Source of the DNA: Eledone cirrhosa
Lineage: Eukaryota
DNA: 64,000 bases
Direction of reading: 5' to 3'
NCBI GenBank assembly: GCA_964016885.1
Contig: OZ024757.1
Coordinates: 12,338,001 to 12,402,000, forward strand
A program made the translations under genes and the position numbers. Under the pieces are notes generated by a model. It did no database searches and had not been told where the DNA came from. It was given only the letters and a program-made list of their open reading frames with translations. Of the stretch, positions 985 to 64,000 are shown piece by piece. The first letter of the stretch is position 1; each line of letters begins with the position of its first letter.

Positions 985-1302
985 CATTTCATTTTACGTC
1001 CGCTTTTCCCTGCTTGCAAGGGTGGGACGGGAACTGATTCTGGCTTGATTTCTACAGATGGATGCCCTTCCTAACACCAACCTCATTTACAGTGAGTGCT
1101 GGGTGCTTTGTTGCCGTGGCACCTCCACGACCACTTTGCAGTGGAATGATAGGGACCCTAGTCCCTATCATCTCATTTCTACTGGAGCAATGTGAAATAA
1201 AGTCTCTTGCTCAAGGAAACAACACATCACCCGGTCTGAGAATTGAACTCACAACCTTTCGATTGCAAGACCAATGCTCTAACCACTAAGCCATGTGCCT
1301 CC
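985..1302 (-). mobile_element. tRNA-derived SINE with CORE-like middle and RTE-derived 3' tail
   Basis: Minus strand reads GGAGGCACATGGCTTAGTGGTTAGAGC (A box)...GAGTTCAATTC (B box)...CCTTGAGCAAGAGACT, then a tail matching the RTE 3'UTR at 63490-63640; second copy at 14540-14854. Confidence 0.85.
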
Positions 1303-3199: not shown

Positions 3200-4288
<1,089 letters not shown>

Positions 4289-4829
4289 ATTTCTAGCTAG
4301 AGATCTTTACATAAAGGATTCTCACTACTTTTACTTATACATTAAGAAATGTAGGTATCGTTAATAGATGCCATGTATTCTAATATACAAAGGTTCCATA
4401 AAAGACTGCAGAGGTCTGCTTTCTTCTACTACAAGTTGTAATGTAGCATTTAGTTGGTACAAGTAATAAGACATATGTCAGTGTAAGACTGATCTTGGAT
4501 GAAGAAAAAGCAAGTACTTATATATATGTGTGTGATTATTGTGGAATATACCACTATTATTATTGTTAAAGTGAGAGGAGCTCTATTCACAATAAAATCC
4601 TCAGCTCATAAATCAGACGAATAAGACTTCTATAGTTAAGGTTCTTGTTATTGGGGACAGTTCAGGTGACAAGAGAATTAATATCCATAATTACAAAAGA
4701 TGAAGGTTAATATATATACATATATATATATACAGACATACTGTGTATACGTATAAGAGAGAGTAATCGACGTATGTGTGTGTGTGTGTAGGTGTTGTAA
4801 TAAATCAAGATATTTTAGTTCAGATAGAA

Positions 4830-9378: not shown

Positions 9379-9385
<7 letters not shown>

Positions 9386-9862
9386 CGTAAAATAAGAAAA
9401 TTATAAAATTAACTTACTTACTAAAAAATCACTTCCAACTAATTAGTTTCTGGAATGGAGTAAATATATTTTCCGAAGAAACACATCGAAAATCATTCCG
9501 TCATCAGGAAAGTCTTTTTCCGTATAGGTCTCCAGGCATAGCGAGGACACTGGAAACTTATTAAAAAAATAATTCAGTGGAATGGAAATAGCAAAGCGTG
9601 GACTGGATTCCAAGCCATTGAAAAAATCACTGCCTCCTCGTCTGTGGCAAATTCAAAAAGAATCAATCACGTGACATCGAGGTCAATCAGTGGAAAGCGA
9701 GTGGTTATTAAGACAGCGGCCAGCTTACTACCATAGTAGCAGTCATGGCCAAATATTGCTCGACAAATGAATTGGAGATAATTATAAGGAATTTATATCT
9801 AGTAACATTTATATACACACAGATGCATATCAATGCTAGCAAATATATAGGTTTTGTCTATA
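9379..9862 (-). mobile_element. Non-coding hammerhead-bearing unit (retrozyme/pLTR-like) in a (TA)n tract
   Basis: Flanked by TA repeats; contains the HHR at 9431-9513; permuted relative at 18670-18840. Confidence 0.7.
9431..9513 (-). ncRNA. Type I hammerhead ribozyme motif
   Basis: ACTTTC-CTGATGA-C GGAATG...CATTCC A-GAAA-CTAATTAG-TT-GGAAGT; palindromic stem III (AACTAATTAGTT); C/A mismatch at the base of stem II. Confidence 0.75.
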
Positions 9863-9909
9863 TATATGTAATATGTATATACACATGGGTTTGTATGATT
9901 GTGTATAGA

Positions 9910-11980
9910 AGATTATATTAATAAAAGGAATTCCAACGTTGTCTGATTTACTCGTTTTATTTACAATACTTTAAAATTTTTAATGGTATTAGAATGAAAT
10001 AGTATGGTGGAATATTAAATGTTAAGTGTTAATTGAACAAGTACTTTCATGCTTTCGCAATCTTCAGGTTCATAATGTGTGGTGACAGTCAAGTTTGCAA
10101 TTTTCAACTGTAATGAGATGGATAAATGTTGTGCCTTATATACAGTGAAAAGTGGCTCCAGAATGCTAAATCTTGCAAACTGTATTTTGACCAATTGGTG
10201 TGTAATTTCACTGTATTACTAAAGCTGATTGGTCTAGGTGTCACCGTTGGTTGAACATGTCTAACGACTACTAATTGACCCTATCCAAAGCATAAATTGT
10301 TTTGCTATTTTTAGAAATGATGAAAATAGCATTTTCTAGTAATCATCACCATCAACATCACTTTTATTATTATTATTATTATTGTTGTTGTTGTTGTTAG
10401 TGGTCGTAGTCATAGTCATAGTAGGATTAAATACCCATTATTATTGTTCATTTAGCTTGGGTTGAATTTATCAATAAAATTCTTTTCTTTGATTTTTCTC
10501 TTAATTTCACTTGGGCTGTGTAATTTGTAGAATGGGAATATTATAAATATTCCCTGATCACATGTTGCTAGATGGTTACTTAGGGGTATCTGACGGACAT
10601 TTGGGTTTCTGATTTGCTGTTGGTGTACCCGTGCACGTTGCGATAGTGCATTTCCAGTTTGACCGACATATAGTTCTTCACAATTCGGGCATTTAATGCA
10701 GTAAATTAGATTTCTGCTTTTGCAGTTCATATTTGCATTTGGGAATATTTTTCCAGTTTTTGTTTTCATATATTGACCGGCGTGTATGGATTGACATGTG
10801 CCACATCGACTATCATTGCATTTAGATACAGTGAATGATTGGTCTTTGCTTTTGTTAGTAATTGCTTCAAATATTTTGGCTGTCTTTTACTAAGAGTCAA
10901 AGATCGATCTGTGATTAAGCCTTTTAATTCATTACTTTGAGCAATGATGGGTAAGTTTGCTTTGGCAGTGTTGAAGATATTCTGGTGACATGGGTTGTGT
11001 GTCATTATAAATGGTATGACCAGTTCTTGGTTTCTTCTTCCTTGGGTTGTCCTAAGTTGTTGTATAGGTATTTTTATAACCCGCTGTATACCATTTTCTA
11101 TAAGTAGAGATGGGTATTTTTGTTTGAGCAAAAATTCTCTTAGTTCTGTTAGGCGTTTGTACCTGGTATTCGTATCTTCTACAATGGTACAAATTCTTCT
11201 GGCTAGGCAGTATGGGATGTTGCGTTTTGTATGAGGTGGATGTCACGACTTAAAATTCAGATATTGATGGGTGTCTGTGTGTTTATAATATATATCCGTG
11301 GTAATGGTGGTGTCGTTTTTGATTATCATTATATCTAGGAATGGTAATTTGGTAGTATTCATCTCTTTTGTGAATTGGAGAGATGGGTGTAGGTTATTCA
11401 GGAGGATATTGAACTCATCCAGAGTATCTAGAGATGTTGTCCAGATGATGAAACAGTCGTCAAGGTATCTCTTCCAAGATTTTTCAAAGTACTATATTTT
11501 TCCTCTATTTCTTGATAGAGTTGTTGTTCTAAGTATCCCATTACAGAGTTCGCGTAAACAGGAGCAAACTTCGTTCCCATCGCTGTGCCTCTAATTTTGA
11601 TTTAATTCTTTCCATTGAAAAAGTGTTGTTTTCCAGAATAAGTTTAACTGCGTCTAATATAAATGGGGCTGTGAATCTGATGGGAATCACTTCTCTATGT
11701 TTTTCCACACGGTATTTAACCGCCTTTATTCCTAAATCATGTGTAATGTTGGTGTAAAGGCTTACTACATCAAAACTAAGTAGAAGTGAATTCGTTTCCG
11801 TGGTTTTGGGAAGCTGGGACAGGAAGTCGATATCATCCCGGATGTGAATACATAGTGGTTTCAAAATAAAGTCAACAAAATTGCTTAGACGGTGGGTGGG
11901 GCAAAAACTTAAAACTTAGACCTATTATAGCTGGTCCAACATACCCCACCCACCGTCTAAGCAATTTTGTTGACATTATT
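9910..11980 (-). mobile_element. Penelope-like retroelement, 5'-truncated and frameshifted (RT + GIY-YIG endonuclease), with a short 5' inversion
   Basis: LLSFDVVSLYTNI (11541-11864), RYLDDCFII (~11443-11470), NLIYCIKCPNCEELYVGQT...R..HQ (10452-10769); LKLRPIIAGP..PTHRLSNFVDII inverted on the plus strand at ~11908-11980. Confidence 0.93.
10034..10072 (-). ncRNA. Minimal type I hammerhead ribozyme in the Penelope 3' region
   Basis: TGAAC-CTGAAGA-T TGC GAAA GCA T-GAAA-GTAC-TT-GTTCA; palindromic AAGTACTT stem III. Confidence 0.85.
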
Positions 11981-12597
11981 TTGCTGTCTTTCTAATTTTG
12001 AGAAGGAAATCAGCAGTGTGGGCACAAAGAAGAAGTGGTTTGTCAGGCCCCGGTATTTAACTATCTTTCTCTTCTCTCTATTGCATGTAGTAAAGCCTGG
12101 GTTTGTGGCCGTAGGGAAAATGTTGGAGGCAGAGAATGATCCAACCCATGCTAAACCTCCAACTAAAGCTGATACTTGTCTTTTTCAGCTGTGGAGATTA
12201 GAGACATGTGAAATGGTGTGTCTTGCTTAAGGACACAATGTACCTCCCTAACTGACAATTGAAAACATGATATTACCATATGTTGTATGACTTCACTATA
12301 CAATATATATGTGTTTGTATACCTATATATAATATATATTTGTGTATACATTGTCTCATTCCATGAGAGTAACTTGGTCAGTCTATGAACTCCTCATCTG
12401 ACCCTTCTATATGTATATACATGTTTGTCAGTGTGTGTGTACATATGTATATAGAATATTGTCACAACTACTATATACACCACATATACACTATATATAA
12501 TATTGTCCAATATATATAGACTATATGTCATGTTGTCCAAGGGAAAGGCTGATATTGATCAGCACCAGTGACATTACAACTATTATATACACTATAT

Positions 12598-13870: not shown

Positions 13871-13984
13871 AATGAAATAATTGCCTTATGTTGTTTATTA
13901 CATAACTATTAAGCTCTGTTACCTACATAGAGCACTCTTTTTTCCTGGACTTTTCCGACGGAATTACTTCACATATATATATAT

Positions 13985-14400
13985 AAACGGAAAAAATGAA
14001 ACGAAATTTCATTTCCCACTCTTACTATGGCTGTTACTTAAATATTAGTATGTATACGTACATACATATATGTATACAGACGTACAGTAGTATGTATATA
14101 TATATATACATACATGCACACATATATATATGTACGTATGGATTCACCAAACATTCATTACAATGCTCGGTGTGTTTGTAAACAAACATCCCGAATTAAG
14201 CCGTACAGTGTCTAACAACAATCGTTGCTCGTTTGTTCAGCACTGACAAAGGAACGCTGTACTAGTTTCAAGCTTGTTAGCTATCGTCAACAACCTTCCT
14301 GCCGATATGCAAATTGGGCTACTCAGCCGTTAATATGCATAAGGAAATTATATACTTTCGGACCATCTGGCAGGAAGGTATACGTTGCAATTTGTATATA
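13985..14400 (-). mobile_element. Diverged copy of the 466-bp hammerhead unit with its promoter-like segment inverted
   Basis: Minus strand GTTG-TTGACGA-TAGC TAACAA GCTT-GAAA-CTAG-TA-CAGCG at 14251-14299; plus strand ATATGCAAAT...TCAGCCGTTAAT...TTATATAC at 14305-14388. Confidence 0.8.
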
Positions 14401-14539
14401 ATAGGGGTTAATTTGAAGCAGAAAAGGTTGGGGACCACTTAAGACAACAAATCGTCCTTTTTATTTTATTACAATTATTATTATTATCATATGTATATAT
14501 ATTTTAGTCTTCAAATTTATTATTATTACTATATATATA

Positions 14540-14852
14540 TCATCATTTTATTTTACGTCCGCTTTTCCCTGCTTGCAAGAGTGGGACGGGAACTGATTCT
14601 GGCTTGATTTCTACAGCCGGATGCCTTTCCTAACACCAACCTCATTTACAGTGAGTGGTGGGTGCTTTTTTGCCGTGGCACCTCCACGACCACTTTGCAG
14701 TAGAATGATAGGGACTGGAGTCCCTATCATCTCATTTCTACAGCTGACTAAACTGGAGCAATGTGAAATAAAGTGTCTTGCTCAAGGAAACAAATTGAAC
14801 TCACAACCTTTCGATTGCAAGGTCAATGCTCTAACCACTAAGCCATGTGCCT

Positions 14853-14854
<2 letters not shown>
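14540..14854 (-). mobile_element. tRNA/CORE-like/RTE-tail SINE
   Basis: Closely similar to 985-1302. Confidence 0.85.
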
Positions 14855-14922
<68 letters not shown>

Positions 14923-15149
14923 AAGTATGCATGTATACGTACATACATATATGTATACAGACGTACAGTAGCGTGCACATATATATATATATATATACAT
15001 ATGCATACAGGTACACATACATATATGCACGTATCAGTTTAGCGGCGCTAACGTCGCTTTGTTCGTTTGTAAACAAACTGAACAGCCTGAATTTATGCCA
15101 TACGGTGTTAAGGCAACCACGTCACCTTTTTGTTCAACACTGACACAGG

Positions 15150-15194
15150 AACGATGTACTAGTTTCAAGCTTGTTAGCTATCATCAGCACCGTT
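15150..15194 (-). ncRNA. Minimal type I hammerhead ribozyme
   Basis: AACGGTG-CTGATGA-T AGC TAACAA GCT T-GAAA-CTAG-TA-CATCGTT. Confidence 0.9.
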
Positions 15195-15466
15195 TACCCA
15201 TCTGCCAGATAGTTGAACGTTCGAAAGTATATACTTTCCTTATGAAAATTAACGGCTGAGCAGCCTAATTTGCATATTGAGTGAGTTAAATCGGTCAGGC
15301 ATACCGAAAACGATAAATTGAAACAAAATGAAAACGAAATTTCATTTCTCACTCTTAGTATGGCACTCAATTTAACTCACTCAATATGCAAATTAGGCTG
15401 CTCAGCCGTTAATTTTCATAAGGAAAGTATATACTTTCGAACGTTCAACTATCTGGCAGCTGGGTA

Positions 15467-15511
15467 AACGGTGCTGATGATAGCTAACAAGCTTGAAACT
15501 TGTACATCGTT
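15467..15511 (+). ncRNA. Minimal type I hammerhead ribozyme (loop III variant CTTG)
   Basis: Same motif with GAAACTTGTA, which breaks the ACTAGT palindrome. Confidence 0.85.
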
Positions 15512-15851
15512 CCTGTGTCAGTGTTGAACAAAAAGGTGACGTGGTTGCCTTAACACCGTATGGCATAAATTCAGGCTGTTCAGTTTGTTTACAAACGAAC
15601 AAAGCGACGTTAGCGCCGCTAAACTGATACGTGCATATATGTATGTGTACCTGTATGCATATGTATATATATATGTATATATATATATATATGTGCATGC
15701 TACTGTACGTCTGTATACATATATGTATGTACGTATACATGCATACTTACATTTAAGTAAGTGCCATACTAAGAGTGAGAAATGAAATTTCGTTTTCATT
15801 TTGTTTCAATTTATCGTTTTCGGTATGCCTGACCGATTTAACTCACTCAAT

Positions 15852-15899
15852 ATGCAAATTAGGCTGCTCAGCCGTTAATTTTCATAAGGAAAGTATATA
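15852..15899 (+). promoter_or_regulatory. Octamer + conserved box + TATA promoter-like block (present in each unit)
   Basis: ATGCAAAT 15852-15859, TCAGCCGTTAATTTTCATA, TATATA 15894-15899; conserved in the diverged units at 14307 and 17069. Confidence 0.5.
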
Positions 15900-15932
15900 C
15901 TTTCGAACGTTCAACTATCTGGCAGATGGGTA

Positions 15933-15977
15933 AACGGTGCTGATGATAGCTAACAAGCTTGAAACTAGTACATCGTT
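15933..15977 (+). ncRNA. Minimal type I hammerhead ribozyme
   Basis: AACGGTG-CTGATGA-TAGC TAACAA GCTT-GAAA-CTAG-TA-CATCGTT; predicted GUA cleavage after 15970. Confidence 0.9.
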
Positions 15978-16398
15978 CCTGTGTCAGTGTTGAACAAAAA
16001 GGTGACGTGGTTGCCTTAACACCGTATGGCATAAATTCAGGCTGTTCAGTTTGTTTACAAACGAACAAAGCGACGTTAGCGCCGCTAAACTGATACGTGC
16101 ATATATGTATGTGTACCTGTATGCATATGTATATATATATGTATATATATATATATATGTGCATGCTACTGTACGTCTGTATACATATATGTATGTACGT
16201 ATACATGCATACTTACATTTAAGTAAGTGCCATACTAAGAGTGAGAAATGAAATTTCGTTTTCATTTTGTTTCAATTTATCGTTTTCGGTATGCCTGACC
16301 GATTTAACTCACTCAATATGCAAATTAGGCTGCTCAGCCGTTAATTTTCATAAGGAAAGTATATACTTTCGAACGTTCAACTATCTGGCAGATGGGTA

Positions 16399-16443
16399 AA
16401 CGGTGCTGATGATAGCTAACAAGCTTGAAACTAGTACATCGTT
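16399..16443 (+). ncRNA. Minimal type I hammerhead ribozyme
   Basis: Identical to 15933-15977. Confidence 0.9.
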
Positions 16444-16759
16444 CCTGTGTCAGTGTTGAACAAAAAGGTGACGTGGTTGCCTTAACACCGTATGGCATAA
16501 ATTCAGGCTGTTCAGTTTGTTTACAAACGAACAAAGCGACGTTAGCGCCGCTAAACTGATACGTGCATATATGTATGTGTACCTGTATGCATATGTATAT
16601 ATATATGTATATATATATATATATATGTGCATGCTACTGTACGTCTGTATACATATATGTATGTACGTATACATGCATACTTACATTTAAGTAAGTGCCA
16701 TACTAAGAGTGAGAAATGAAATTTCGTTTTCATTTTGTTTCTATATATATATATATATG

Positions 16760-16827
<68 letters not shown>

Positions 16828-16832
16828 CAAAT

Positions 16833-17421
16833 AATAGCTGGACACTCACAGTAAAGTGACCAGTGAAAAACTCGGTACATCTACATATGTATACGTGTGT
16901 GTATTCATATGCATACTAGTATTTCAGTATACATATGTGGATGTACATTTTTAACTTAATTGTTTAAGCGTCAGTCATACAAAAGTGAGTTACAAACGAA
17001 ACGAAATTTAATTTCGTTTCGTTATTTGTTTTTATCGTCTCCGTTGAACCGGTACGTACTCACGCTCTATGCAAATTAGTCTGCCCACTACTAATTTTCA
17101 TAGAAAAAGCATATAACGATATGTGCTTTTACGATTCTCTAGAGAGGCCGGAAGATAGGTAAATGTTGCTGATGAGATGTAACAACATCGAAACTAGTTC
17201 AATATTCCTTGTCTGGCTTTCTGGAGAATAGAGGAAAGGTGTTTCCTCAAAAACCAGTATGACTCTAAAAACCGGTTTGTCTGTGTGTTTACATACAGAA
17301 TAGCTGGACACTCACAGTAAAGTGACCAGTGAAAAACTCGGTACATCTACATATGTATACGTGTGTGTATTCATATGCATACTAGTATTTCAGTATACAT
17401 ATGTGGATGTACATTTTTAAC

Positions 17422-17428
<7 letters not shown>
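16833..17428 (+). mobile_element. Diverged subfamily of the 466-bp hammerhead unit (about 1.3 units, ~130-bp terminal direct repeat)
   Basis: ATAGCTGGACACTCAC at 16834 and 17300 (period 466); shares TATGCAAATTAG.CTGC and TAATTTTCATA with the adjacent array. Confidence 0.85.
17162..17206 (+). ncRNA. Minimal type I hammerhead ribozyme (covariant stems)
   Basis: AATGTTG-CTGATGA-GATG TAACAA CATC-GAAA-CTAG-TT-CAATATT. Confidence 0.9.
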
Positions 17429-17459
<31 letters not shown>

Positions 17460-17822
17460 GTTACATATGAAAATATATATGGGTTACATATGAAAAACTT
17501 TGTCCTCATCAGTGGCCATCCAACCGTCGTAGGCATTTCGTCGCATTAAAGGCCATATGGTGCGAGCAACGGCTAAAAAAAAGTCGTTCGGACACGTAAA
17601 TAAAGGGGACGCTAGGGTAAACAAACAAAATGGTTTAAGCAGCAGAAAGAGAGGGAGAAGGAAACAAGTCCCAGATTTCTATGAATATAAATTCGGTGGA
17701 ATCGTGAACGAGAGAATAAAGACCATCAAACCTGGTTGAAATGTGAGCAAGGAAGGAATTTCGCACAGGTCTAACGGGAGGAAGAAGGGGTCTGGTCTGC
17801 GAATTCGGTAAACATAAGTTCT

Positions 17823-17871
<49 letters not shown>

Positions 17872-17874
<3 letters not shown>

Positions 17875-18240
17875 AAATGAGGTCGTGTAGGTGTCACGAC
17901 AAAAAAAAAACACACAGTCCGCGCTGTAATGTGGCCGTGTAGGTAACACGGTAAAAACCTCCCAGTTCCACACTGTAAATGTGGTTGGTGTTAGGAAGGC
18001 CACCCAGCCGTAGAAAACCCGCCAGACAATCCTATGCGAGCAAGACAACCACTCTTGCCTCAAGTGGGAAAACTCCCGTCCAAACCCATGCAAGCGTGGA
18101 ATATGGACGTTAAACGAAGATGATGATGATGATGATGATGATAGTAATAATAATAAATTTGAAGACTAAAATCCAAATAGAGCTCGATAAGGATAAATAT
18201 ATATCAAATATATAAGAACCGTAGAGCAAATATTTATTAA
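17872..18240 (+). repeat. Direct duplicate of 21442-21885 (RTE 3' end plus flank)
   Basis: ACAAATGAGGTCGTGTAGGTGTCACGAC...(GAT)n...GAAGACTAAAATCCAAA...GAACCGTAGAGCAAATATTTATTAA in both places. Confidence 0.88.
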
Positions 18241-18596: not shown

Positions 18597-18617
18597 CTAT
18601 ATATATATATATATATA

Positions 18618-18845
18618 TATGAAAGACGTAAAATAAGAAAATTATAAAAATTAACTTACTTACAAAAAAGGAGTGAAATATTAGTAAGTAAGTTAATTTT
18701 TATAATTTTCTTATTTTACGTCTTTCATATAATTGTTCTGCATCCCCTTGCATTGAACCACAATGTTACTAAGACAAAACCTATATATTTGCTAGCATAG
18801 GTATGCATCTGTATATATATGTTGGTAGATATACTAATTCTTTAT
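18618..18845 (+). mobile_element. Permuted fragment of the 9379-9862 unit with an inverted tail
   Basis: 18618-18663 is the reverse complement of 18684-18730; 18771-18843 matches the reverse complement of 9790-9860. Confidence 0.8.
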
Positions 18846-19596
18846 TTATATATATATATATATGTGTATGTATATATACACAGATATATATATATATGTG
18901 TGTGTGTGTACCCCTCATTCCGTTTTTAAAAATACACTCGTTGAACACGTCATCCCCGTGGCAACACGTGGTTCAAATCATTCGCAGATTTGCATTTGCT
19001 GTATAAACACAGATGGTTATCTTCTTCTCCTTTGGTGAACATCAAAGAATTTAACTGCTGTGATTTACGGATTAATAGGTGAAATATATTTCTTACTTAA
19101 AGAAATATATACAAAGGCGATTAATCATTTTAAATGGTATCTATATTTGAAGTTCTAGTTAAACTTTAATTAGTTACCTACCTAGCTATGTGTGCCTACA
19201 TTCTTTACAAATTATTCCCTGTGATTGTTTCATGTATTTATTTTAATAATAATAATAATGAAATATTGTGTACAGTGCTCAGGTGCACTACAACTCATCA
19301 AAAAGTGTATGTATAGTACATAGGGTAATGTACAAACGTCAGGAAAATTAACAGTGCATGAGTCATGATACACACGTGTGCATGTGTATGGAAGGGGTAC
19401 ATCAGGTGTAGTTTTGGAGTATTTCGGGAAGCATGAGTGTCTTAAAGGATGCAGTTTTATATATATATATGTCAATCTATTTCTAGTTGATAAGTAATGC
19501 ACGGATCTAATCTTTGAGCTTATTCTACGGTGGATATGGCGCATGTCTCTCAGACATGACAACCCTTAATTTTAATTTTGTATATATATATATATA

Positions 19597-21708
19597 GAAG
19601 GTAGCTTGGAAGTGTCACTACGAAAGGCTACTAAATGAGGAGAATAAATGGGAGAAAGACAGTCTCCCCCACATCGACCCAATAGAGGGACCAGCAGTGT
19701 TAGTCGAAGGTAGTATAATAAGTAAGGCAATCAGAGATATGAAGACGGGTAAGGCCTTCGGAAATAGTTGCTGAGATACTGAAAGCCTCTGGAACGGTGG
19801 GACACACCATGGTCACCCGGATAGTAAACCAAGTCATACAGAATGGGGTTGTTCCGAAGGACTGGCGTAGCAGCAGCATCATTAACTGCTACAAGGGTAA
19901 AGGAGACGCCCTAGATAGGAGTAACTATAGAGGCATTAAATTAATCGACCAGGTCATGAAGGTCATGGAAAAAGTAATAGCGCAACTAATCAGAGAGAGA
20001 ATTGATCTAGATGAAATGCAGTTCGGGTTTGTGTCAGGCAAAAGTACCACAGACGCTCTTTTCATTGTACGACAACTACAGGAGAAGTACCTAGCTAAAA
20101 GTAAACCCCTATACTTAGCTTTTGTCGACTTGGAGAAAGCCTTCGACAGAGTCCCCCGTTCCATTATCTGGTGGGCTCTTAGAAAACTAGGTGTTGATGA
20201 ATGGCTTGTGAGAGCTATACAAGCCATGTAAAAAGAAACAGTCAGCAAGGTTAGAATTAACAACGAATATAGTGAAGGGTTTAGCGTAAAAGTTGGTGTT
20301 CATCAGGGCTCCGTTCTTAGCCCCCTACTATTTATTATAGCCCTTCAGGCTATAACAGTGGAGTTCAAGACCGGCTGCCCATGGGAGCTCCTATACGCAG
20401 ATGATCTAACGCTCATAGCTGAATCAATGGCCGAACTAGAGAAGAAATTCCAAACATGGAAGCACGGCCTAGAATCAAAAGGCCTTAAAATTAACCTGGC
20501 TAAGACTAAAGTTTTAGTTTGTAGGAAGGAAAATAGGGCGCCGGTCCCATCCGGGAAATGGCCATGCTCAGTATGTAGGAAAGGCGTAGGTAGAAACTCC
20601 ATTTTATGTCCCAAATGCAAAGTATGGGTGCATAAAAGATGTAGTGGGATCACAGGTAAGCTAACTAAGAACATAGATTTTACATGTGGCCGGTGCCCAC
20701 AAAATACTAGCTCTTTCAATTGCACAGAGGGTTCTATAGAAATAGTGGACAGCTTCCGTTACCTGGGTGACAAAATCAGCAGTGGGGGAGGGTGCTCTGA
20801 AAGTATAGTAGCTAGAGTCAGAACTGGATGGAAAAAGTTCAGAGAGCATATACCATTATTAGCCGCTAAAGGGTTCTCCCTAAAAATGAAAGGCAGGCTG
20901 TATGATGCCTGCATACGAACAGCAATGTTGCTTGGCAGTGAGACCTGGGCATTGTGTGCAGAGGATATACGCAGACTAGAGAGGAACGAAGCTTGCATGC
21001 TCCGCTGGATGTGTAATAGTAATATACGTGAACGGCAAAGCATTAACGAACTAAGGGAAACATTAGAAATAAGAGGGATCAGATGTTGTTTACTCGAGAG
21101 AAGTATGGTCACGTGATGCGCATGAAAGACGATAGCTGTATAAAAAAGTGCAGGGCAATAAAAATAGACGGTAGCCACGGAGTAGGCAGACCCAGAAAAA
21201 CCTGGGACGACTTGATAAATTCTGACCTCACACACTTGCACCTCTCCAAGACAATGTCACTGGACCGAGATCTTTGGCGGTACTCAGTAATAGAGAATCC
21301 CGCCTTACCTAAATACAAAGTAAAACATACTACAGTCAGTAGGCACCTTTAACAAAATACTCCCCCGTCCCACTACCCCCACCCCATCCACACCGCCCCT
21401 TTCAATGTAAAGTTATGTTGGTACCACAACATCCAGGCCGAAACAAATGAGGTCGTGTAGGTGTCACGACAAAAAAACACACAGTTCACGCTGTAATGTG
21501 GCCGTGTAGGTAACACAGTAAAAACCTCCCAGTTCCACACTGTAAATGTGGTTGGTGTTAGGAAGGGCATTCAACCGTAGAAAACCCGCCAGACAGTCCT
21601 ATGAGAGCAAGATAACCACTCTTGCCTCAAGTGGGAAAACTCCCGTTCAAACCCATGCAAGCGTGGAATATGGACGTTAAACGATGATGATGATGATGAT
21701 GATGATGA
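19597..21708 (+). mobile_element. 5'-truncated RTE LINE (RT + PHD finger), disrupted
   Basis: NYRGIKL, QFGF, AFVDLEKAFDRVP, LLYADDL, CSVC..CPKC..HKRC..CGRC, DSFRYLG; stop at 20229; (GAT)n tail. Confidence 0.95.
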
Positions 21709-28575: not shown

Positions 28576-28956
28576 CAAACCAATGATGAAATTTCTGGCA
28601 TAGATTTAAAATTAATTCAAAAAGTCAAGAATAGATCAGAGAAAGATTTTAATTTCAAATGAAAATATATTTGTAAAAATGGCCAGCAATGTTTGGAGTC
28701 TATCAAACTGCCAAGTATTCACATTTGATATTGGTGGAAAATAAGTTTAGATTTGTAAGAGGAAGGATGTCTCATGTTTCACAGTTAAATACTTTCCTTC
28801 CTCTCTATGTTTGTGTCTAAATAACTGTTAGAGAAAAAACATTTCCCACATATTTCATTGTGTAAAACGTTTTTCACCAGTGTTTGTTATTTTGTGTTTA
28901 TTATATTCACTGTTACTAATGAAAGATTTTCCACATATTTCACAGTGATAGCGTTT

Positions 28957-29850
28957 CTATCCAGTATATGTTCTTTTGTGTTTAGTTAAGACATTACTCC
29001 TGCCAAAAGATTTCCCACATGTTTCACAGTGATAGGGTCTCTCTCCTGTATGTGTTCTTTTGTGTTTATTATAATGACTGTTACTAATAAAAGAGTTCCC
29101 ACATATTTTACAGTGGAAAGGCTTTTCTCCTGTGTGAGTACGTATGTGGACAATGAGATCAGGAGAATTTGTAAAAGATTTCCCACATATTTCACAGTGA
29201 TAGGATTTCTCTCCAGTATGTGTTCTTTTATGTACAGTTAAGGAATGGCTTGTTACAAACGCTTTCCCACATATTTCACAATGGAAGTATTTCTCTCCAG
29301 TGTGTCTTCTTCTGTGAACTATAAGAACAGCATTATGAGCAAAATATTTCCCACATATTTCACAGTGAAAAGTTTTCTCTCCGGTGTGAATACGTATATG
29401 TCTAACAAGATTGGCTTTCTCAGTGAAAGATTTCTCACATATTTCACAGTGAAATGGTTTTTCCCCACTGTGACTATGTAAATGCCTAATTAAATTGGCA
29501 TTTTGGCTGAAAGATTTCCCACATATTTCACAATGAAAAGGTTTCTCTCTTGTGTGACTTTTTATGTGTTCACGAAGATGAGGAGTTTTAGAGAAAGATT
29601 TTCCAAATATTTCACAATGATGGGGTTTGTCTTTAATATGTATGTGTTTGTGTGTAGATAATTCATGTTCTGATGAGAAAGTTTTCCTACAAATCTCACA
29701 GCTATATTCAGGAATATTTCTGTATAATGATCCTTGTTCAGTACATGTTTCACTGGGTAAAGGTTTCTCACCACTGTATCTCTGTATAACTCTATCTATA
29801 TTGGTAGAAACAGGTGTGTTAGAAATGTCCAAGGGTTTAACATCTTCCAT
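28957..29850 (-). CDS. C2H2 zinc-finger protein, 9 fingers (two imperfect)
   Basis: Open ORF (312 aa from 29895; likely start MEDVKPL at 29850, shared with paralogs); TAG replaces the linker Glu, with decayed fingers continuing to ~28760. Confidence 0.85.
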   Translation of the reverse strand: MEDVKPLDISNTPVSTNIDRVIQRYSGEKPLPSETCTEQGSLYRNIPEYSCEICRKTFSSEHELSTHKHIHIKDKPHHCEIFGKSFSKTPHLREHIKSHTREKPFHCEICGKSFSQNANLIRHLHSHSGEKPFHCEICEKSFTEKANLVRHIRIHTGEKTFHCEICGKYFAHNAVLIVHRRRHTGEKYFHCEICGKAFVTSHSLTVHKRTHTGEKSYHCEICGKSFTNSPDLIVHIRTHTGEKPFHCKICGNSFISNSHYNKHKRTHTGERPYHCETCGKSFGRSNVLTKHKRTYTG

Positions 29851-41593: not shown

Positions 41594-42484
41594 ATGGAAG
41601 ACGTTAAACCCTTGGACATTTCTACCACACCTGTTTCTACCAATATAGATACAGTTACAGAGACATACAGTGATAAGAAACCTTTACCTAGTGAAACGTA
41701 CTGAACAAGGATCATTATACAGAAATATTCCTGAATATAGCTGTGAGATTTGTAGGAAAACTTTCTCACCAGAACATGAATTATCGACACACAAATACAT
41801 ACATATTAAAGACAAACCATATCATTGTGAAATATGTGGGAAATCTTTCAGTCTGAATTCCAATTTTGTTAGGCATATACGTAGTCACAGTGGGGAAAAA
41901 CCATTTCACTGTGAAATACGTGGGAAATCTTTTGCTGAGAAAGCTAAACTTGTTACACGTATACATATTCACACCGGAGAGAAACCTTTTCCCTGTGAAA
42001 TATGTGGGAAATATTTTCCTGATATTGCTGTTCTTATTGTTCACAGAAGAACACACACCGGAGAGAAACCCTATCAATGTGAAATATGTGGGAAATATTT
42101 TGCTCATAATGCTGTTCTTATAGTTCACAGAAGAAGTTACACTGGAGAGAAATACTTCCATTGTGAAATATGTGGGAAGCGTTTGTAAAAAGCAGTGATT
42201 TAACTATACATAAAAGAACACATACTGGAGAGAAACCCTATCACTGTGAAATATGTGAGAAATCTTTTACAAATTCTCCTGATATCATTGTCCACATACG
42301 TACTCACACAGGAGAAAAGCCTTTCCACTGTAAAATATGTGGAAAATCTTTTATTAGTAACAGTAATTATAATAAATACAAAAGAACACATATAGGAGAG
42401 AGACCCTATCACTGTGAAATATGTGGGAAATCTTTTGGCAGGAGTAATGTCTTAACTAATCACAAAAGAACATATACTGGATAG
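41594..42484 (+). pseudogene. C2H2 zinc-finger gene, frameshifted paralog of 28957-29850
   Basis: ATGGAAGACGTTAAACCC start; 2-bp loss at ~41697 and 1-bp loss at ~42178; same TAG end. Confidence 0.85.
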
Positions 42485-44099
42485 AAACGCTATCACTGTG
42501 AAATATGTGGGAGATCTTTCATTAGTAACAGTGAATATAATAAACACAAAATAACAAACACTGGTGAAAAACGTTTTACACAATGAAATATGTGGGAAAT
42601 GTTTTTTCTCTAACAGTTATTTAGACACAAACATAGAGAGGAAGGAAAGTTTTTAACTGTGAAACATGAGACATCCTTCCTCTTACAACTCTGAACTTAT
42701 TTTCCATCAATATCAAATGTGAATACTTGGCAGTTTGATAGACTGGCCATTTTTACAAATATATTTTCATTTGAAATTAAAATCTTTCTCTGATCTATTC
42801 TTGACTTTTTGAATTAATTTTAAATCTATGCCAGAAGTTTCAGTATTGGTTTATCAACACCAACATTCTCTCCTTTAGTGTGTGTAATTAAGGGACCCTC
42901 TATCACCTGAGGTAATGTCTTCTCTGCTATGATAAATTTTAGAAGCCTACACCAACATTCCCTCCTATAGTGTGTGTAATTAAGGGACCCTCTATCACAT
43001 GAGGTAATGTCTTGTCTGCTATGATAAATGTTAGAGCCCTACACCAACATTCCCTGTTGTAGTGTGTAATTGGAGGGCCCTCTATCACCTGAGGTATTGC
43101 TGTGAGTGTCCAGTCTCAGAAATTTTAGAGGGTAACACCAACATTCTCTGTTACAGTAATTGAAGGAGTAGTTTTACCTGTTTTTCTTTTTCTTTCAAAC
43201 TCACTTTTTTTTTATTGATTTTTTTATTTTGTAAACAATTTATTAATTTTTCATAATTAATTTTATGAAGTGTATTTATGTCTTAAATTTCATTCTATTT
43301 GTTATTAATAAAATAATTATATTTAAGGAATTTATCAAGTCTGTAACTTCAACTTTTTATTATTTTGCCATCTAAATCTCTGTTATTAACACCATATGTA
43401 ATGATATCATCTTGTAAGTAGTTTTAATACATCTAACACCCATCTAAATCTCTGTTATTAACACCATATGTAATGATATCATCTTGTTAGTAGTTTTAAT
43501 ACATCTAACACCCGTCTAAATCTCTGTTATTAACACCATATATAATGATATCATCTTGTAAGTAGCATTAATACAACTAACACCCATCTAAATCTCTGTT
43601 ATTAACACCATATGTAATGATATCATCTTGTAAGTAGTTTTAATACATTTAACACCCATCTAAATCTCTGTTATTAACACCATATATAATGATATCATCT
43701 TGTAAGTAGTTCTAATACATCTAACACCCATCTAAATCTCTGTTATTAACACCATATGTAATGATATCATCTTGTAAGTAGTTTTAATACATCTAACACC
43801 CATCTAAATCTCTGTTATTAACACCATATGTAATGATATCATCTTGTAAGTAGATTAATACATCTAACACAAACACTTCAATATTGTTTAAAATGATTGA
43901 AATTCTATAACTCTTCGTATATTTTACAACTGAAATTTAGAAATTTGACAATATCCTGGTTACAGGGCCACTAACTTTGGTGGTATCATTGTTTCCCTAA
44001 AGTAACAAGAAATATTAAAACTTAGTCACAAAAGATCACAAACTGTTGAAGTATTAGTTGTTTGTTGTTGAACTTGTTGTAATGGAGATTTCTGGCATT

Positions 44100-44460: not shown

Positions 44461-45146
44461 GAAAGCCCCACAGGTTTTAAAAGCTATTTCAACACATCTC
44501 ACTTTCTGTCCTCCAGGGTAACCCCCATTTCACCATTCTGTCCTCTCCTGGGACCACAAGGTAGCTGATACATAGTGTTCTCCATGCCAGAAAGAATTCT
44601 CCCAAACTGTCCAGGTTTGTATCATTGGGGGTAGTGATGGTATAGTTTACTGATTGTTGTTAGTCACAATCAATTATAAGAAATGTTTCAAGAAATATGA
44701 AGCAACAAATATTATTTGCTAAAACTAGTTAAATCTCTATTGATTTGTAAATTAGGCTCAAGAGCAGCAGATTTAGGCGAAGGGCAAAGTTGATTAAACC
44801 AACCCCAATACATGACTGGTAAAATATTTTATCAACTCTAGAATGTTGAAATAATTATTTGACCTTGGCAGGATTTGAACTGGGAATGTTAAGAACCAGA
44901 ACAAATACTGCAATAATATTTTATCTGACGCTCTACCAATTCTGCCATTCTACCATCTTTGTTTAAATCTATATTAAAGTAAATGTAGAATATGTCCATC
45001 TACCATTTGAAATTCTACTGAGATAGGACCAGAACAACACAGTAGTGTTTCAATAGAACAGAAACACACAAACTTTTTCTTACCCAAATTTCAGTCTTAC
45101 ACTGTAATATCAATTCTCAACTTTTAAATGTACTTCAAGAATTACT

Positions 45147-46050
45147 ATGGAGGACATTAAACAGTTGGTCATTTCTAACGCCACTCTCTCTACCAATATA
45201 GATACAGTCACACAGACATACAGTGGTGAAATATGTGGGAAATCTTTTGCTTCTAACAGTAATTTAACTGTACACAAAAGAACACACCCTGGTGAGAAAC
45301 CCTTCCGCTGTGAAATATGTGGGAAATCTTTCTCTGGAAATTTTAGTGTTGCTTTTCACAAACGAACACACACTGGAGAAAAACCTTTCAGTGTGAAATA
45401 TGTGGGAAATCTTTTGCTTGGAATGCAAATCTTGTTAGCCATATACGTAGCCACACTGGAGAGAAATCTTTCCATTGTGACATATGTGGGAAATCTTTCA
45501 GTGAGAGAAGTAAGCTTGTTGGGCATGTACGTAGTCACCCCGGAGAAAAACCTTTCCACTGCAAAATATATGGGAAATCTTTTGACAATAGCAGTAATAT
45601 AGTAATATGATTAAACACAAAAGAAGACATACTGGAGAAAAACCCTATCATTGTGAAATATGTAGAAAATATTTCACTGAGAATGTTAGTCTTGTAGTTC
45701 ACAAAAGAAGACACAGTGGAGAAAAACCTTTCCACTGTTATATATGTGGAAACTCCTTTGCCACTAGCAGTAAATTGACTGTCCATAAAAGAACACACAC
45801 TGGAGAGAAACCTTTCCACTGTGATATATGTGGGAAATCTTTTGCCACTAGCAGTCGTTTAACTGTCCACAAAAGAAGACACAGTGGAGAGAAACCTTTA
45901 CATTATGAAATATGTGGAAACTCCTTTGCCACTAGCAGTAAATTGATTGTCCACAAAAGAATACATGCTGGACAAAAAGCCTTCAACTCTAAAATAACTC
46001 TGACCTGGTTGACCATGTATGCAGTGACACTGGTAAAAACCCTTTTGTAA
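45147..46050 (+). pseudogene. C2H2 zinc-finger gene with frameshifts
   Basis: MEDIKQL start; fingers split between ORFs 45147-45602 and 45607-46050. Confidence 0.85.
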
Positions 46051-51778: not shown

Positions 51779-52010
51779 AACTTGCTTTTTCTTCATCAGT
51801 CAAGATCAGTCTCACACTATCATATGTCTTATTACTTGTACCAACTGAATGCTACATTACAACTTTGTAGAAGAAGAAAGCGGAGTTCTGCAGTCTTTTA
51901 TGGACCCTTTGTATATTAGACTACATAGCATCTATTAACCATATCTACATATCTTAATGTATCAGTAGAAGTGGTGAGACTCCTTTATATAAAGATCTCT
52001 AGCTAGAAAT

Positions 52011-52772
52011 ATGTCTGAATATAGCTGTGAGATTTGCAGGAAAACTTTCTCTTCAAAACTGAAACTATCCTCACACAAGAAAATAAACAGTGGAGAAAAA
52101 CCCTTCCACTGTGAAATGTATGGGAAATCTTTTACCTATAATTCTAATCTTGTCGTCCACATACGGAGTCGCACTGGTGAAAAACCCTTCCACTGTGAAA
52201 TATGTGGTAAATCCTTTTCTAGTAATTCTACACTTGAATTTCACAAAAGAATACACACTGATGAAAGCCCCTTCCATTGTGAAATATGTGGGAAATCTTT
52301 TTCTCAGGGTTCGCATCTTGTACATCACAAAAGAATACACACAGGAGAAAAATCTTATTCATGTGAAATATGTGGGAAATATTTCACTCAGATGGTGCAA
52401 CTTGAATATCACAAAAGAACCCATACTGGAGAAAAGCCCTTCCATTGTGAAATATGTGGGAAATCTTTTTCACATTGTGTTAACTTAGTAAAACACAAAA
52501 GAATACACACTGGAGAAAAACCTTATTCATGTGAAATATGTGGGAAATCTTTTTCTCGAGGTTCTAGTCTTGTAGATCACAAAAGAATACACACAGGAGA
52601 AAAACCCTTCCATTGTGAAATATGTGGGAAATCTGTTTCTAATAGTTCTCATCTTGTACAGCACAAAAGAATACACACAGGAGAAAAACCTTATTCATGT
52701 GAAATATGTGGGAAATCTTTCTCTCAGAATTCGTCACAGGTTGTTCACCTACGTAGTCAACACTTGCAATAA
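52011..52772 (+). CDS. C2H2 zinc-finger protein, 9 fingers (first two degenerate)
   Basis: Uninterrupted 253-aa ORF with HTGEKP linkers; an upstream exon cannot be excluded. Confidence 0.85.
   Translation: MSEYSCEICRKTFSSKLKLSSHKKINSGEKPFHCEMYGKSFTYNSNLVVHIRSRTGEKPFHCEICGKSFSSNSTLEFHKRIHTDESPFHCEICGKSFSQGSHLVHHKRIHTGEKSYSCEICGKYFTQMVQLEYHKRTHTGEKPFHCEICGKSFSHCVNLVKHKRIHTGEKPYSCEICGKSFSRGSSLVDHKRIHTGEKPFHCEICGKSVSNSSHLVQHKRIHTGEKPYSCEICGKSFSQNSSQVVHLRSQHLQ

Positions 52773-58939: not shown

Positions 58940-64000
<5,061 letters not shown>

What the first reader, a model, noticed from the sequence alone, without database searches (positions are those of the whole stretch)
13985..17428. Three diverged subfamilies side by side: ribozyme stems covary and two share a 466-bp unit length
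Seen: subfamily A has stem I AACGGTG/CATCGTT and stem II TAGC/GCTT. Subfamily B (17162-17206) has AATGTTG/CAATATT and GATG/CATC, with identical loop II (TAACAA), core and CTAG. Much of the rest of the unit is hard to align by eye, yet B's period (16834 to 17300) is also 466. A third subfamily (13985-14400) keeps stem II but has a TTGACGA core. Inferred: selection on RNA structure and possibly on monomer size, and repeated targeting of the same TA-rich site.
Basis: partly seen in the sequence, partly recalled or inferred. Interest (0 to 1): 0.8.

Follow-up and report, generated by a model that had tools for sequence, protein, structure and literature searches.

The report
Ribozyme retroposons sharing one whole-circle fold
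Three related repeats of roughly 430-470 bases in an animal genome each carry a hammerhead ribozyme motif and sit at TA microsatellites; the two complete ones keep the same predicted RNA fold through about twenty compensating changes, so they are likely retrozymes copied by a Penelope-like retrotransposon, while their matching 466-base length is probably chance.

Summary
Subfamilies A, B and C are homologous type I hammerhead units. A's and B's periods are both 466, but A's copies run 456-468, C is about 422-429, and an exact match has about 4% chance (26% for falling in A's range). Selection on size is not supported.

Covariation is real and reaches beyond the ribozyme. Circular A and B monomers (61% identical) fold independently into the same helix layout (z about -8.4 and -9.0). 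They share 47 of 157 pairs, against at most 27 in 150 neutral simulations. A hand register shows 21 double-sided changes. Variants in public runs avoid paired positions (7 of 24, P 6e-4).

All three insertions carry an inverted piece. Five of six outer ends abut TA repeats and fall at two fixed sites of the fold, like the two reverse-transcription starts of Penelope-like elements (PLEs). A broken PLE with a Neptune/Nematis-type linker lies 2 kb away but is not the parent. C's TTGACGA core looks like damage to this copy.

Verdict: new non-LTR retrozymes, likely non-autonomous PLEs. Cleavage, expression and circularity were not tested.

The parts
13973..13985 (.). short TA run at C's 3' end
   Evidence: sequence
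13986..14303 (-). subfamily C body, 5'-truncated; hammerhead core at 14290 with U at position 3 and a 5' arm 6 nt shorter than in the + piece; predicted cut after 14260; ends at site ii
14304..14388 (+). subfamily C inverted 5' piece (octamer hairpin, second hairpin, 5' arm of stem I, ending on C3)
   Evidence: (D8, D13)
14855..14918 (.). (AT)32 array, left flank of A
14920..15369 (-). subfamily A inverted arm, about one monomer (period 456), core at 15187; outer end at site i (loop of hairpin H9)
   Evidence: (I1-I3)
15370..15835 (+). A unit 1 (466 nt), hammerhead 15467-15511 with loop III CTTG; 2 substitutions against unit 2
15836..16301 (+). A unit 2 (466 nt), hammerhead 15933-15977, predicted cut after 15970; reference for the fold
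15851..15886 (+). hairpin H1 with ATGCAAAT in its 5' arm (octamer label recalled); homologues at 17068-17102 (B) and 14306-14341 (C); possible internal promoter or protein site
16302..16741 (+). A unit 3, partial (+2 nt in the TA tract), hammerhead 16399-16443; outer end at site ii, 6 nt after hairpin H10
16742..16823 (.). (TA)41 imperfect array shared by A (right flank) and B (left flank)
16821..16834 (-). subfamily B inverted 14-nt stub, reverse complement of 17022-17035; outer end at site ii
   Evidence: chance about 4e-4
16833..17426 (+). subfamily B, 1.27 units (period 466, 129-nt terminal direct repeat), hammerhead 17162-17206, predicted cut after 17199; outer end at site i
   Evidence: (D9)
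17427..17457 (.). (TA)15 array, right flank of B

Best explanation
A, B and C are three diverged subfamilies of one non-coding repeat with a type I hammerhead motif, likely non-LTR retrozymes that a Penelope-like retrotransposon (PLE) copied into TA microsatellites, and the two complete monomers are predicted to share one branched RNA fold that is likely under selection. Proposed cycle: (1) tandem copies are transcribed (inferred; an internal snRNA-type promoter is possible). (2) Neighbouring hammerheads would cut the multimer into 466-nt monomers, probably as dimers because stem III is a 6-nt palindrome (inferred from the axolotl and newt precedent). (3) A host ligase would circularise them (inferred from PMC7229834). 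(4) A PLE protein would nick both strands of (TA)n and start reverse transcription inside the RNA at one of two fixed sites, the loop of hairpin H9 or just after hairpin H10 (the ends are seen; the enzyme is inferred). (5) The two cDNAs grown from the two flanks would join at their truncated ends, leaving the inverted piece plus partial tandem that is seen. Length is only loosely bounded by the helix layout; 466 = 466 is likely chance.
For: Hammerhead cores with stems in all copies (0 in each of 30 shuffles); B matches Rfam HH9 over the full model at E 8e-8. Circular MFE z -8.4 (A) and -9.0 (B) against 40 dinucleotide shuffles each. Same order and nesting of helices. 47 of 157 A pairs are kept exactly in B; 150 neutral simulations gave mean 4.9, maximum 27. 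Outside the ribozyme and the TA hairpin, 37 of 79 against a maximum of 17 of 100 simulations, and 32 of 100 at half the divergence. Hand register of 102 positions: 100 pair in both, 21 change on both sides, 6 on one side, all through G.U; two double changes lie in long-range helix P5. The sense strand folds about 35 kcal/mol lower than the antisense in both. Of 24 variant places in laid public contigs, 7 are paired where 180 of 288 places are paired (P 6e-4). Run X2 gave 4382 laid contig pieces at 80-100% likeness, one opposite-strand joint, and 4 contigs running into TA repeats just after site ii. Inverted pieces in 3 of 3 insertions; 5 of 6 outer ends at sites i/ii and next to TA. PLEs show partial tandems, inverted 5' copies, a tail at one end and microsatellite bias (PMC8557442). 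A PLE protein extends both target strands and starts at two internal RNA sites (PMC11167929). Xenopus retrozymes are related to PLE pLTRs (10.64898/2026.07.22.740005). A broken PLE with RT, CX4CX2C linker, GIY-YIG, its own hammerhead and its own inverted 5' piece lies at 10067-11983.
Against: Cleavage, transcription and circles were not tested. Li et al. found cleavage in only 1 of 9 predicted Xenopus dimers. The active hammerhead fold costs about 7.5 kcal/mol over the free fold in A2 and B. The full-length comparison rests on two sequences, and the hand register was fitted by eye (an automatic alignment counted only 6 double changes, against a null maximum of 2). The 24 variants are not independent events: many mark one C-like lineage and several rest mainly on one low-depth contig. 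Four of the 7 paired variants break a pair taken singly, and in X2 the change at 16439 (38%) is not matched by its partner at 16403 (5.5%). No core position varies, but that alone is not significant (P 0.34). C breaks 4 of 50 A pairs, and C's right end is at neither site. The distance between sites is 56 nt (A) and about 75 nt (B), longer than the 30-40 nt PLE tail. The neighbouring PLE shares no real sequence with A or B, so the mobilising element was not found. B and C have one ribozyme each and cannot release a monomer from these loci alone.
Confidence: 0.8

Rival explanations
1. The units are detached pseudo-LTRs (solo ends) of autonomous PLEs. The fold was selected in the full-length PLE transcript, and these copies are dead by-products, not independent circular RNAs.
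For: PLE pLTRs carry type I hammerheads and give the same tandem/inverted insertions. A PLE with a hammerhead of similar build (T.T at the base of stem II, palindromic stem III) lies nearby.
Against: Unit 1 runs straight into units 2 and 3 with no ORF remnant. Helices P0 and P5 close across the unit in a way that suits a circle or multimer. A and B have a long stem I with an internal bulge. The nearby PLE's 3' region does not match A or B.
Confidence: 0.12
2. They are satellite-like DNA repeats whose hairpins come from DNA-level processes (slippage, quasi-palindrome correction), with no selection on RNA outside the ribozyme.
For: The longest hairpin is a TA-rich, self-complementary tract that slips between copies. 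Local inverted repeats can be perfected by template switching (established knowledge, recalled).
Against: The signal remains without the TA hairpin and the ribozyme (37 of 79 against a maximum of 17). Long-range helix P5 has two double changes. All six one-sided changes use G.U. The fold is strand-specific by 35 kcal/mol.
Confidence: 0.04
3. Monomer length itself is under tight selection at 466 nt, for example for nucleosome phasing or circle geometry.
For: A and B match exactly despite 26 indel events; P 0.038.
Against: A's own copies span 456-468; P 0.26 for B to fall in that range. C is estimated at 422-429. One match among three subfamily pairs. Published retrozyme families range from 51 to 972 bp. 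This rival can hold alongside the best explanation.
Confidence: 0.1
4. The conserved block upstream of the ribozyme is a DNA promoter of the snRNA type (octamer, proximal element, TATA-like box) carried inside each unit, as reported for newt satellite 2. This can hold alongside the best explanation.
For: ATGCAAAT is invariant in A, B and C, 81-100 nt before the core and has no variant at 5% or more in laid contigs. The block is 19 of 22 identical between A and B with no compensatory change. Newt satellite 2 is said to use an snRNA promoter (secondary statement in PMC2220036).
Against: The octamer and the TATA-like box both lie inside predicted hairpins, and the second hairpin has two double changes, so RNA structure explains part of the conservation. 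No host snRNA promoter was available to compare. Runs of four or more T in each unit would stop RNA polymerase III (recalled), so the promoter could not be copied with the RNA unless polymerase II reads through.
Confidence: 0.3

Closest known systems
Non-LTR retrozymes of animals (Cervera and de la Pena 2020, PMC7229834; mussel 350-390 nt, axolotl 331/353 nt)
   Same: Tandem, AT-rich, non-coding units with one type I hammerhead each; highly self-paired predicted circle; stem III of one pair plus a palindromic tetraloop (as HHR_Amex1); U.U at the base of stem II in A and C (as HHR_Amex2).
   Different: Unit slightly above the 150-450 bp range given there. In the sections I read, the folds are minimum-energy predictions, with no whole-unit covariation and no mapping of insertion ends; the supplement could not be read. 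Expression was shown there and not here.
Retrozymes as non-autonomous PLEs (Li, Clavereau, Pollet 2026, 10.64898/2026.07.22.740005)
   Same: Co-occurrence with an endonuclease-bearing PLE; A meets their rule of two or more consecutive units with complete ribozymes; length inside their 51-972 bp range.
   Different: Their link is pLTR sequence homology and co-occurrence, mostly in vertebrates. Here no parent pLTR was found, and the link rests on insertion anatomy (inverted piece, two fixed end sites, TA targets).
Penelope-like elements, Neptune/Nematis and Poseidon clades (Craig et al. 2021, PMC8557442; Frangieh et al. 2024, PMC11167929)
   Same: Partial tandems, inverted truncated copy, tail at one end only, two internal start sites, AT-rich or microsatellite targets, hammerhead in the repeat.
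   Different: No ORF; tail 56-75 nt instead of 30-40 nt.
Newt satellite 2 (known to me through PMC7229834 and one sentence in PMC2220036; original papers not read)
   Same: Tandem hammerhead unit with a minimal palindromic stem III; possible internal snRNA-type promoter.
   Different: No promoter function shown here; dispersed short insertions with inversions.
Rfam Hammerhead_HH9 (RF02275)
   Same: B aligns to the whole model, E 8e-8, with a similar loop II and stem I bulge.
   Different: 34.9 bits (A 18.5) against a gathering score of 52; stem III loop absent.

Membership tests
Type I hammerhead ribozyme | Conserved core CUGANGA ... GAAA ... UH | tested here: met
   A (4 copies) and B; triplet ends in A (A, C) or U (B)
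Type I hammerhead ribozyme | Canonical C3 in copy C | tested here: not met
   U at position 3 (14290) next to a 6-nt shorter arm; the + piece of the same insertion has C3; not a listed variant
Type I hammerhead ribozyme | Stems I (open), II and III can form | tested here: met
   stem III is one pair plus a palindromic loop; the active fold is about 7.5 kcal/mol above the free fold in A2 and B
Type I hammerhead ribozyme | Self-cleavage | not testable with these tools
   needs in vitro transcription
Rfam Hammerhead_HH9 | Score at or above gathering threshold (52 bits) | tested here: not met
   B 34.9, A 18.5 bits; not filed under HH9
Non-LTR retrozyme | Tandem units each with a type I hammerhead | tested here: met
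   A: 3 consecutive cores 466 nt apart. B (1.27 units) and C are single-ribozyme, truncated members of the same family
Non-LTR retrozyme | A few hundred bp, low G+C, non-coding | tested here: met
   466 nt; G+C 0.35-0.36 over 14001-18000; no ORF of 120 aa within the units (one frame through the flanking repeat and TA array runs about 50 nt into A's inverted arm)
Non-LTR retrozyme | No LTR, primer-binding site or polypurine tract | not tested
   no tRNA-like match in the region; PBS and PPT not searched
Non-LTR retrozyme | Highly self-paired monomer | tested here: met
   67% paired, z -8.4 and -9.0
Non-LTR retrozyme | Expressed as linear and circular monomers | not testable with these tools
   no RNA run was available to lay
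Non-autonomous Penelope-like element | Partial tandem with inverted truncated copy | tested here: met
   inverted piece in 3 of 3 insertions; partial tandem in A and B
Non-autonomous Penelope-like element | 30-40 nt tail between two start sites, often at one end | tested here: inconclusive
   two sites seen at 5 of 6 ends, one of each in A and in B, but 56 and about 75 nt apart
Non-autonomous Penelope-like element | Insertion bias for microsatellites or AT-rich DNA | tested here: met
   5 of 6 outer ends abut TA repeats; 4 contigs in X2 run into TA
Non-autonomous Penelope-like element | Sequence shared with the pLTR of an autonomous PLE | tested here: inconclusive
   none with the one PLE in the window; the rest of the genome is not held

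The most novel reading that the evidence does not exclude
These are endogenous viroid-like RNA circles. The entire branched fold, not just the ribozyme, is the selected unit: it carries its own promoter, presents two defined start sites to a hijacked Penelope reverse transcriptase, and may persist or even be copied at the RNA level between rounds of genomic insertion.
Probability: 0.12. Interest if true: 0.8.

Novelty: new member of a known kind. Interest (0 to 1): 0.45.

Why it matters
Animal retrozymes are known, but how they are copied and what the non-ribozyme 90% of the unit is for are open questions. Here two natural variants at 61% identity give a covariation-backed model of a whole monomer. 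The insertion ends map to two fixed places in that model, which is the footprint expected from PLE internal initiation. That turns 'PLEs mobilise retrozymes' into a direct test: give a host PLE protein these RNAs and ask whether it starts at sites i and ii and needs helices P0, P5, H9 and H10. Searches (open-access library only) listed no paper describing this family or a whole-unit covariation analysis of an animal retrozyme. Most subscription papers, Repbase/Dfam and the supplements of PMC7229834 and of the 2026 preprint were not seen.

Tried and rejected
Whole-genome survey: no genome is held, so the requested length histogram and R-scape test could not be run.

Rfam at gathering threshold: only one tRNA-like hit at 1236-1293. 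The many microRNA hits at loose threshold are TA-tract artefacts, all far below gathering scores.

Pattern scans: strict pattern, 0 hits in metagenome contigs. Loose pattern, 117 metagenome loci (1 of 64 parts scanned) and 120 viral loci (25 of 64 parts), plus 1 genome locus from a stricter pattern. Of 242 matches in these 238 loci, 3 passed the stem test and none had sequence similarity to A, B or C.

Sequencing runs: no RNA holder listed; this says nothing about expression. Of 24 listed runs I laid 4. X24 gave 0 of 12,836,656 reads (no test). X1 gave 5 pieces and X13 gave 13, at low depth; whether these runs hold the host itself is not shown, and X1 may be the window's source. The tool skipped 16035-16212 as repeat, so length variation in the TA tract was not measured.

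Host identity: two zinc-finger searches did not name it (no hit; best identity 54% among the 120 listed, across many animals). A cephalopod is my impression from recall only; the O. vulgaris repeat paper has 0 mentions of 'ribozyme'.

Promoter: no mollusc snRNA promoter paper turned up in the listing. Pfam named only the GIY-YIG piece among 3 PLE fragments.

One search's first hand register had five mis-set helix coordinates and is replaced; only its simulation is used.

Earlier-findings look-ups by place and by sequence were empty.

Rejected: TTGACGA as a subfamily core; tight selection on 466 nt; the neighbouring PLE as direct parent.
Full report
Setting. The window is from an animal genome: arrays of C2H2 zinc-finger genes, retrotransposon fragments and many TA microsatellites. 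The tools did not name the host; my impression of a cephalopod is recall only. No whole genome is held.

The observation. A similar scan gave 0 cores in each of 30 block-shuffled windows. B aligns to the whole Rfam HH9 model at E 8e-8, but at 34.9 bits against a threshold of 52. Both periods are 466. A and B align end to end, 309 of 506 columns; C is about 75% identical to A.

Anatomy. A is one insertion: (AT)32, an inverted near-monomer (14920-15369), 2.95 forward units (15370-16741), then (TA)41. Its copies differ by a few substitutions and by slips in the TA tract, giving periods of 456, 466, 466 and 468, so it is young. B follows in the same TA array: a 14-nt inverted stub (16821-16834, the reverse complement of 17022-17035; chance about 4e-4), 1.27 forward units, then (TA)15. 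C is a minus-strand truncated unit with an inverted piece whose end overlaps the start of the body, the geometry expected from priming on both target strands (inference). Five of the six outer ends abut TA repeats, and the same five fall at two places: site i, in the loop of hairpin H9 (A left, B right), and site ii, 6-12 nt after hairpin H10 (A right, B left, C left). C's right end fits neither.

Structure. Folded separately as circles, A and B give -152 and -159 kcal/mol, z -8.4 and -9.0 against 40 dinucleotide shuffles each. They show the same nested layout: a closing helix P0 around hairpins H1 and H2, the long ribozyme stem, H4, and a second closing helix P5 around H6-H9, with H10 outside. 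With an automatic alignment, 47 of A's 157 pairs recur exactly in B; 150 neutral simulations with the same substitutions and indels gave 4.9 on average and 27 at most. Leaving out the ribozyme and the TA hairpin, 37 of 79 recur, against at most 17 of 100 simulations, or 32 of 100 at half the divergence. A hand register of 102 positions has 73 unchanged, 21 changed on both sides, 6 on one side (all through G.U), one T.T to G-C and one shared C.T mismatch. It was fitted by eye; the automatic count of double changes is 6 against a null maximum of 2. The ribozyme strand folds about 35 kcal/mol lower than its complement in both, which points to RNA and not to DNA cruciforms. C keeps most helices but breaks 4 of 50 A pairs.

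Other copies. Twenty of 24 listed runs, from 15 studies, hold words of unit A; I laid four. Run X2 gave 4382 contig pieces (957, 1350, 1575 and 500 at 99+, 95-99, 90-95 and under 90% likeness). This indicates a large, varied family but is not a copy number. X1 gave 5 pieces, X13 gave 13 and X24 none. Over the 288 bases covered, 24 places varied at 5% or more in some run; 7 are paired where 180 of 288 are paired (P 6e-4). The events are not independent. Four of the seven break a pair taken singly, and the stem I change at 16439 (38% in X2) is not matched at 16403 (5.5%), so that pair does not covary cleanly. No core base varies (P 0.34 alone). N7 varies in 42% of X2 depth but C3 is not listed, and 26 contigs continue with the longer 5' arm seen in C's + piece. 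So C's TTGACGA core with its shortened arm is most likely damage to this copy. One further opposite-strand joint was seen, and 4 contigs pass into TA repeats just after site ii; 98 loose-end rows were not shown.

Length. Twenty-six indel events separate A and B. With random signs they cancel exactly in 3.8% of trials, come within 2 nt in 11%, and fall within A's own range in 26%. The three landmark segments are 88/312/66 in A, 100/307/59 in B and 81/282/unknown in C, so C is about 422-429. The fixed set of helices bounds the size loosely; the exact match is best read as chance. The genome-wide histogram could not be made.

Mechanism. Shown: motifs, tandem and inverted anatomy, end sites, TA flanks, conserved pairing potential. 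Inferred: transcription, cleavage (probably as dimers, given the palindromic stem III and the axolotl result in PMC7229834), ligation into circles, and copying by a PLE enzyme. PMC11167929 shows a PLE protein that nicks and extends both strands of AT-rich DNA and starts at two internal RNA sites that define the genomic tail. PMC8557442 describes partial tandems, inverted copies, a tail at one end and microsatellite bias. A and B each have one end with the tail and one without, although the tail is 56-75 nt, not 30-40. A broken PLE lies at 10458-11903 (-), 59-77% identical to an unnamed full-length PLE protein, with a CX4CX2C linker (Neptune/Nematis type by the definition in PMC8557442), GIY-YIG, a hammerhead at 10067 and an inverted piece at 11906-11983. 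It shares no real sequence with A or B. It shows that such an enzyme existed in this genome, not that it moved these units. All eight hammerhead cores of the window lie between 9.5 and 17.2 kb, while 24 TA arrays are spread from 8.9 to 56.4 kb. TA preference alone may therefore not explain the cluster; re-cutting near earlier insertions is a possibility, not tested.

Promoter. The block upstream of the ribozyme holds an invariant ATGCAAAT (octamer label recalled) and a TATA-like run. Both lie in hairpins. H1 is conserved in sequence without compensatory change, which fits a DNA or protein site, while H2 covaries like RNA. Newt satellite 2 is said to use an snRNA promoter (one sentence in PMC2220036). 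I leave this at about 30%.

Comparison and verdict. It works like a non-LTR retrozyme moved by a PLE, and A meets the sequence criteria for membership; expression and cleavage could not be tested. It is a new member of a known kind. What is uncommon is the covariation-backed fold of a whole monomer and the mapping of insertion ends onto it. Interest 0.45.

Papers seen: 10.64898/2026.07.22.740005, parts 1-3 of 5 (abstract to discussion; supplements closed); PMC7229834, passages and parts 2-4 of 6 (results, discussion; supplement unreadable, and it holds structure figures that may bear on novelty); PMC11167929, parts 1-2 of 4; PMC8557442, PMC2220036, PMC10886601 and PMC13282606, passages only; Coats et al. 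1994, not read.

Noticed in passing
window 10067-11983 (-): Broken Penelope-like element of Neptune/Nematis type (RT, CX4CX2C linker, GIY-YIG; frameshifts and stops), with an inverted 78-nt 5' piece at 11906-11983 and a minimal hammerhead core at 10067.
   Followed up: partly
window 9380-9865 (-), with related pieces at 18616-18850: A fourth, unrelated hammerhead-bearing repeat: core at 9507 with a 50-nt extended stem II and a 10-nt palindromic stem III, ending in (TA)28. At 18621-18726 its end sequence occurs as an inverted pair next to a TA array, followed by sequence matching 9859-9784, which suggests another tandem unit of roughly 500 nt.
   Followed up: partly
window 9.5-17.2 kb: All eight hammerhead cores of the 64 kb window, from at least five families or subfamilies, cluster in under 8 kb although TA arrays occur over most of the window.
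   Followed up: no
L118:1-613 (NZ_BMSF01000152.1): A 613-nt AT-rich contig in a Streptomyces narbonensis assembly is a 1.15-unit repeat (period about 530) with a type I hammerhead with the same loop II and stem III as here but no other similarity; likely eukaryotic contamination.
   Followed up: partly
window 15350-15375: The junction of A's inverted and forward arms has a short duplication of nearby sequence, as from microhomology-mediated joining.
   Followed up: no
window 16240-16280 (run X1 records 2-5): The 35-40 nt block around hairpin H10 matches four contigs with unrelated flanks (5-7 differences); either chance AT-rich matches or a motif shared with other elements.
   Followed up: no
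window 1236-1293 (-), 14530-14920 and many other places: A tRNA-like segment (Rfam 30.5 bits) and several dispersed SINE-like repeat families; one composite lies between C and A.
   Followed up: no
window 3242-4296, 28836-29850, 41649-42605, 45108-46050, 51993-52772, 59970-60581: A cluster of at least six C2H2 zinc-finger genes or pseudogenes with 84-nt periodicity, among many minisatellites and fragments that look like LINE reverse transcriptase (19743-21116, 61447-63004; label from recall).
   Followed up: no
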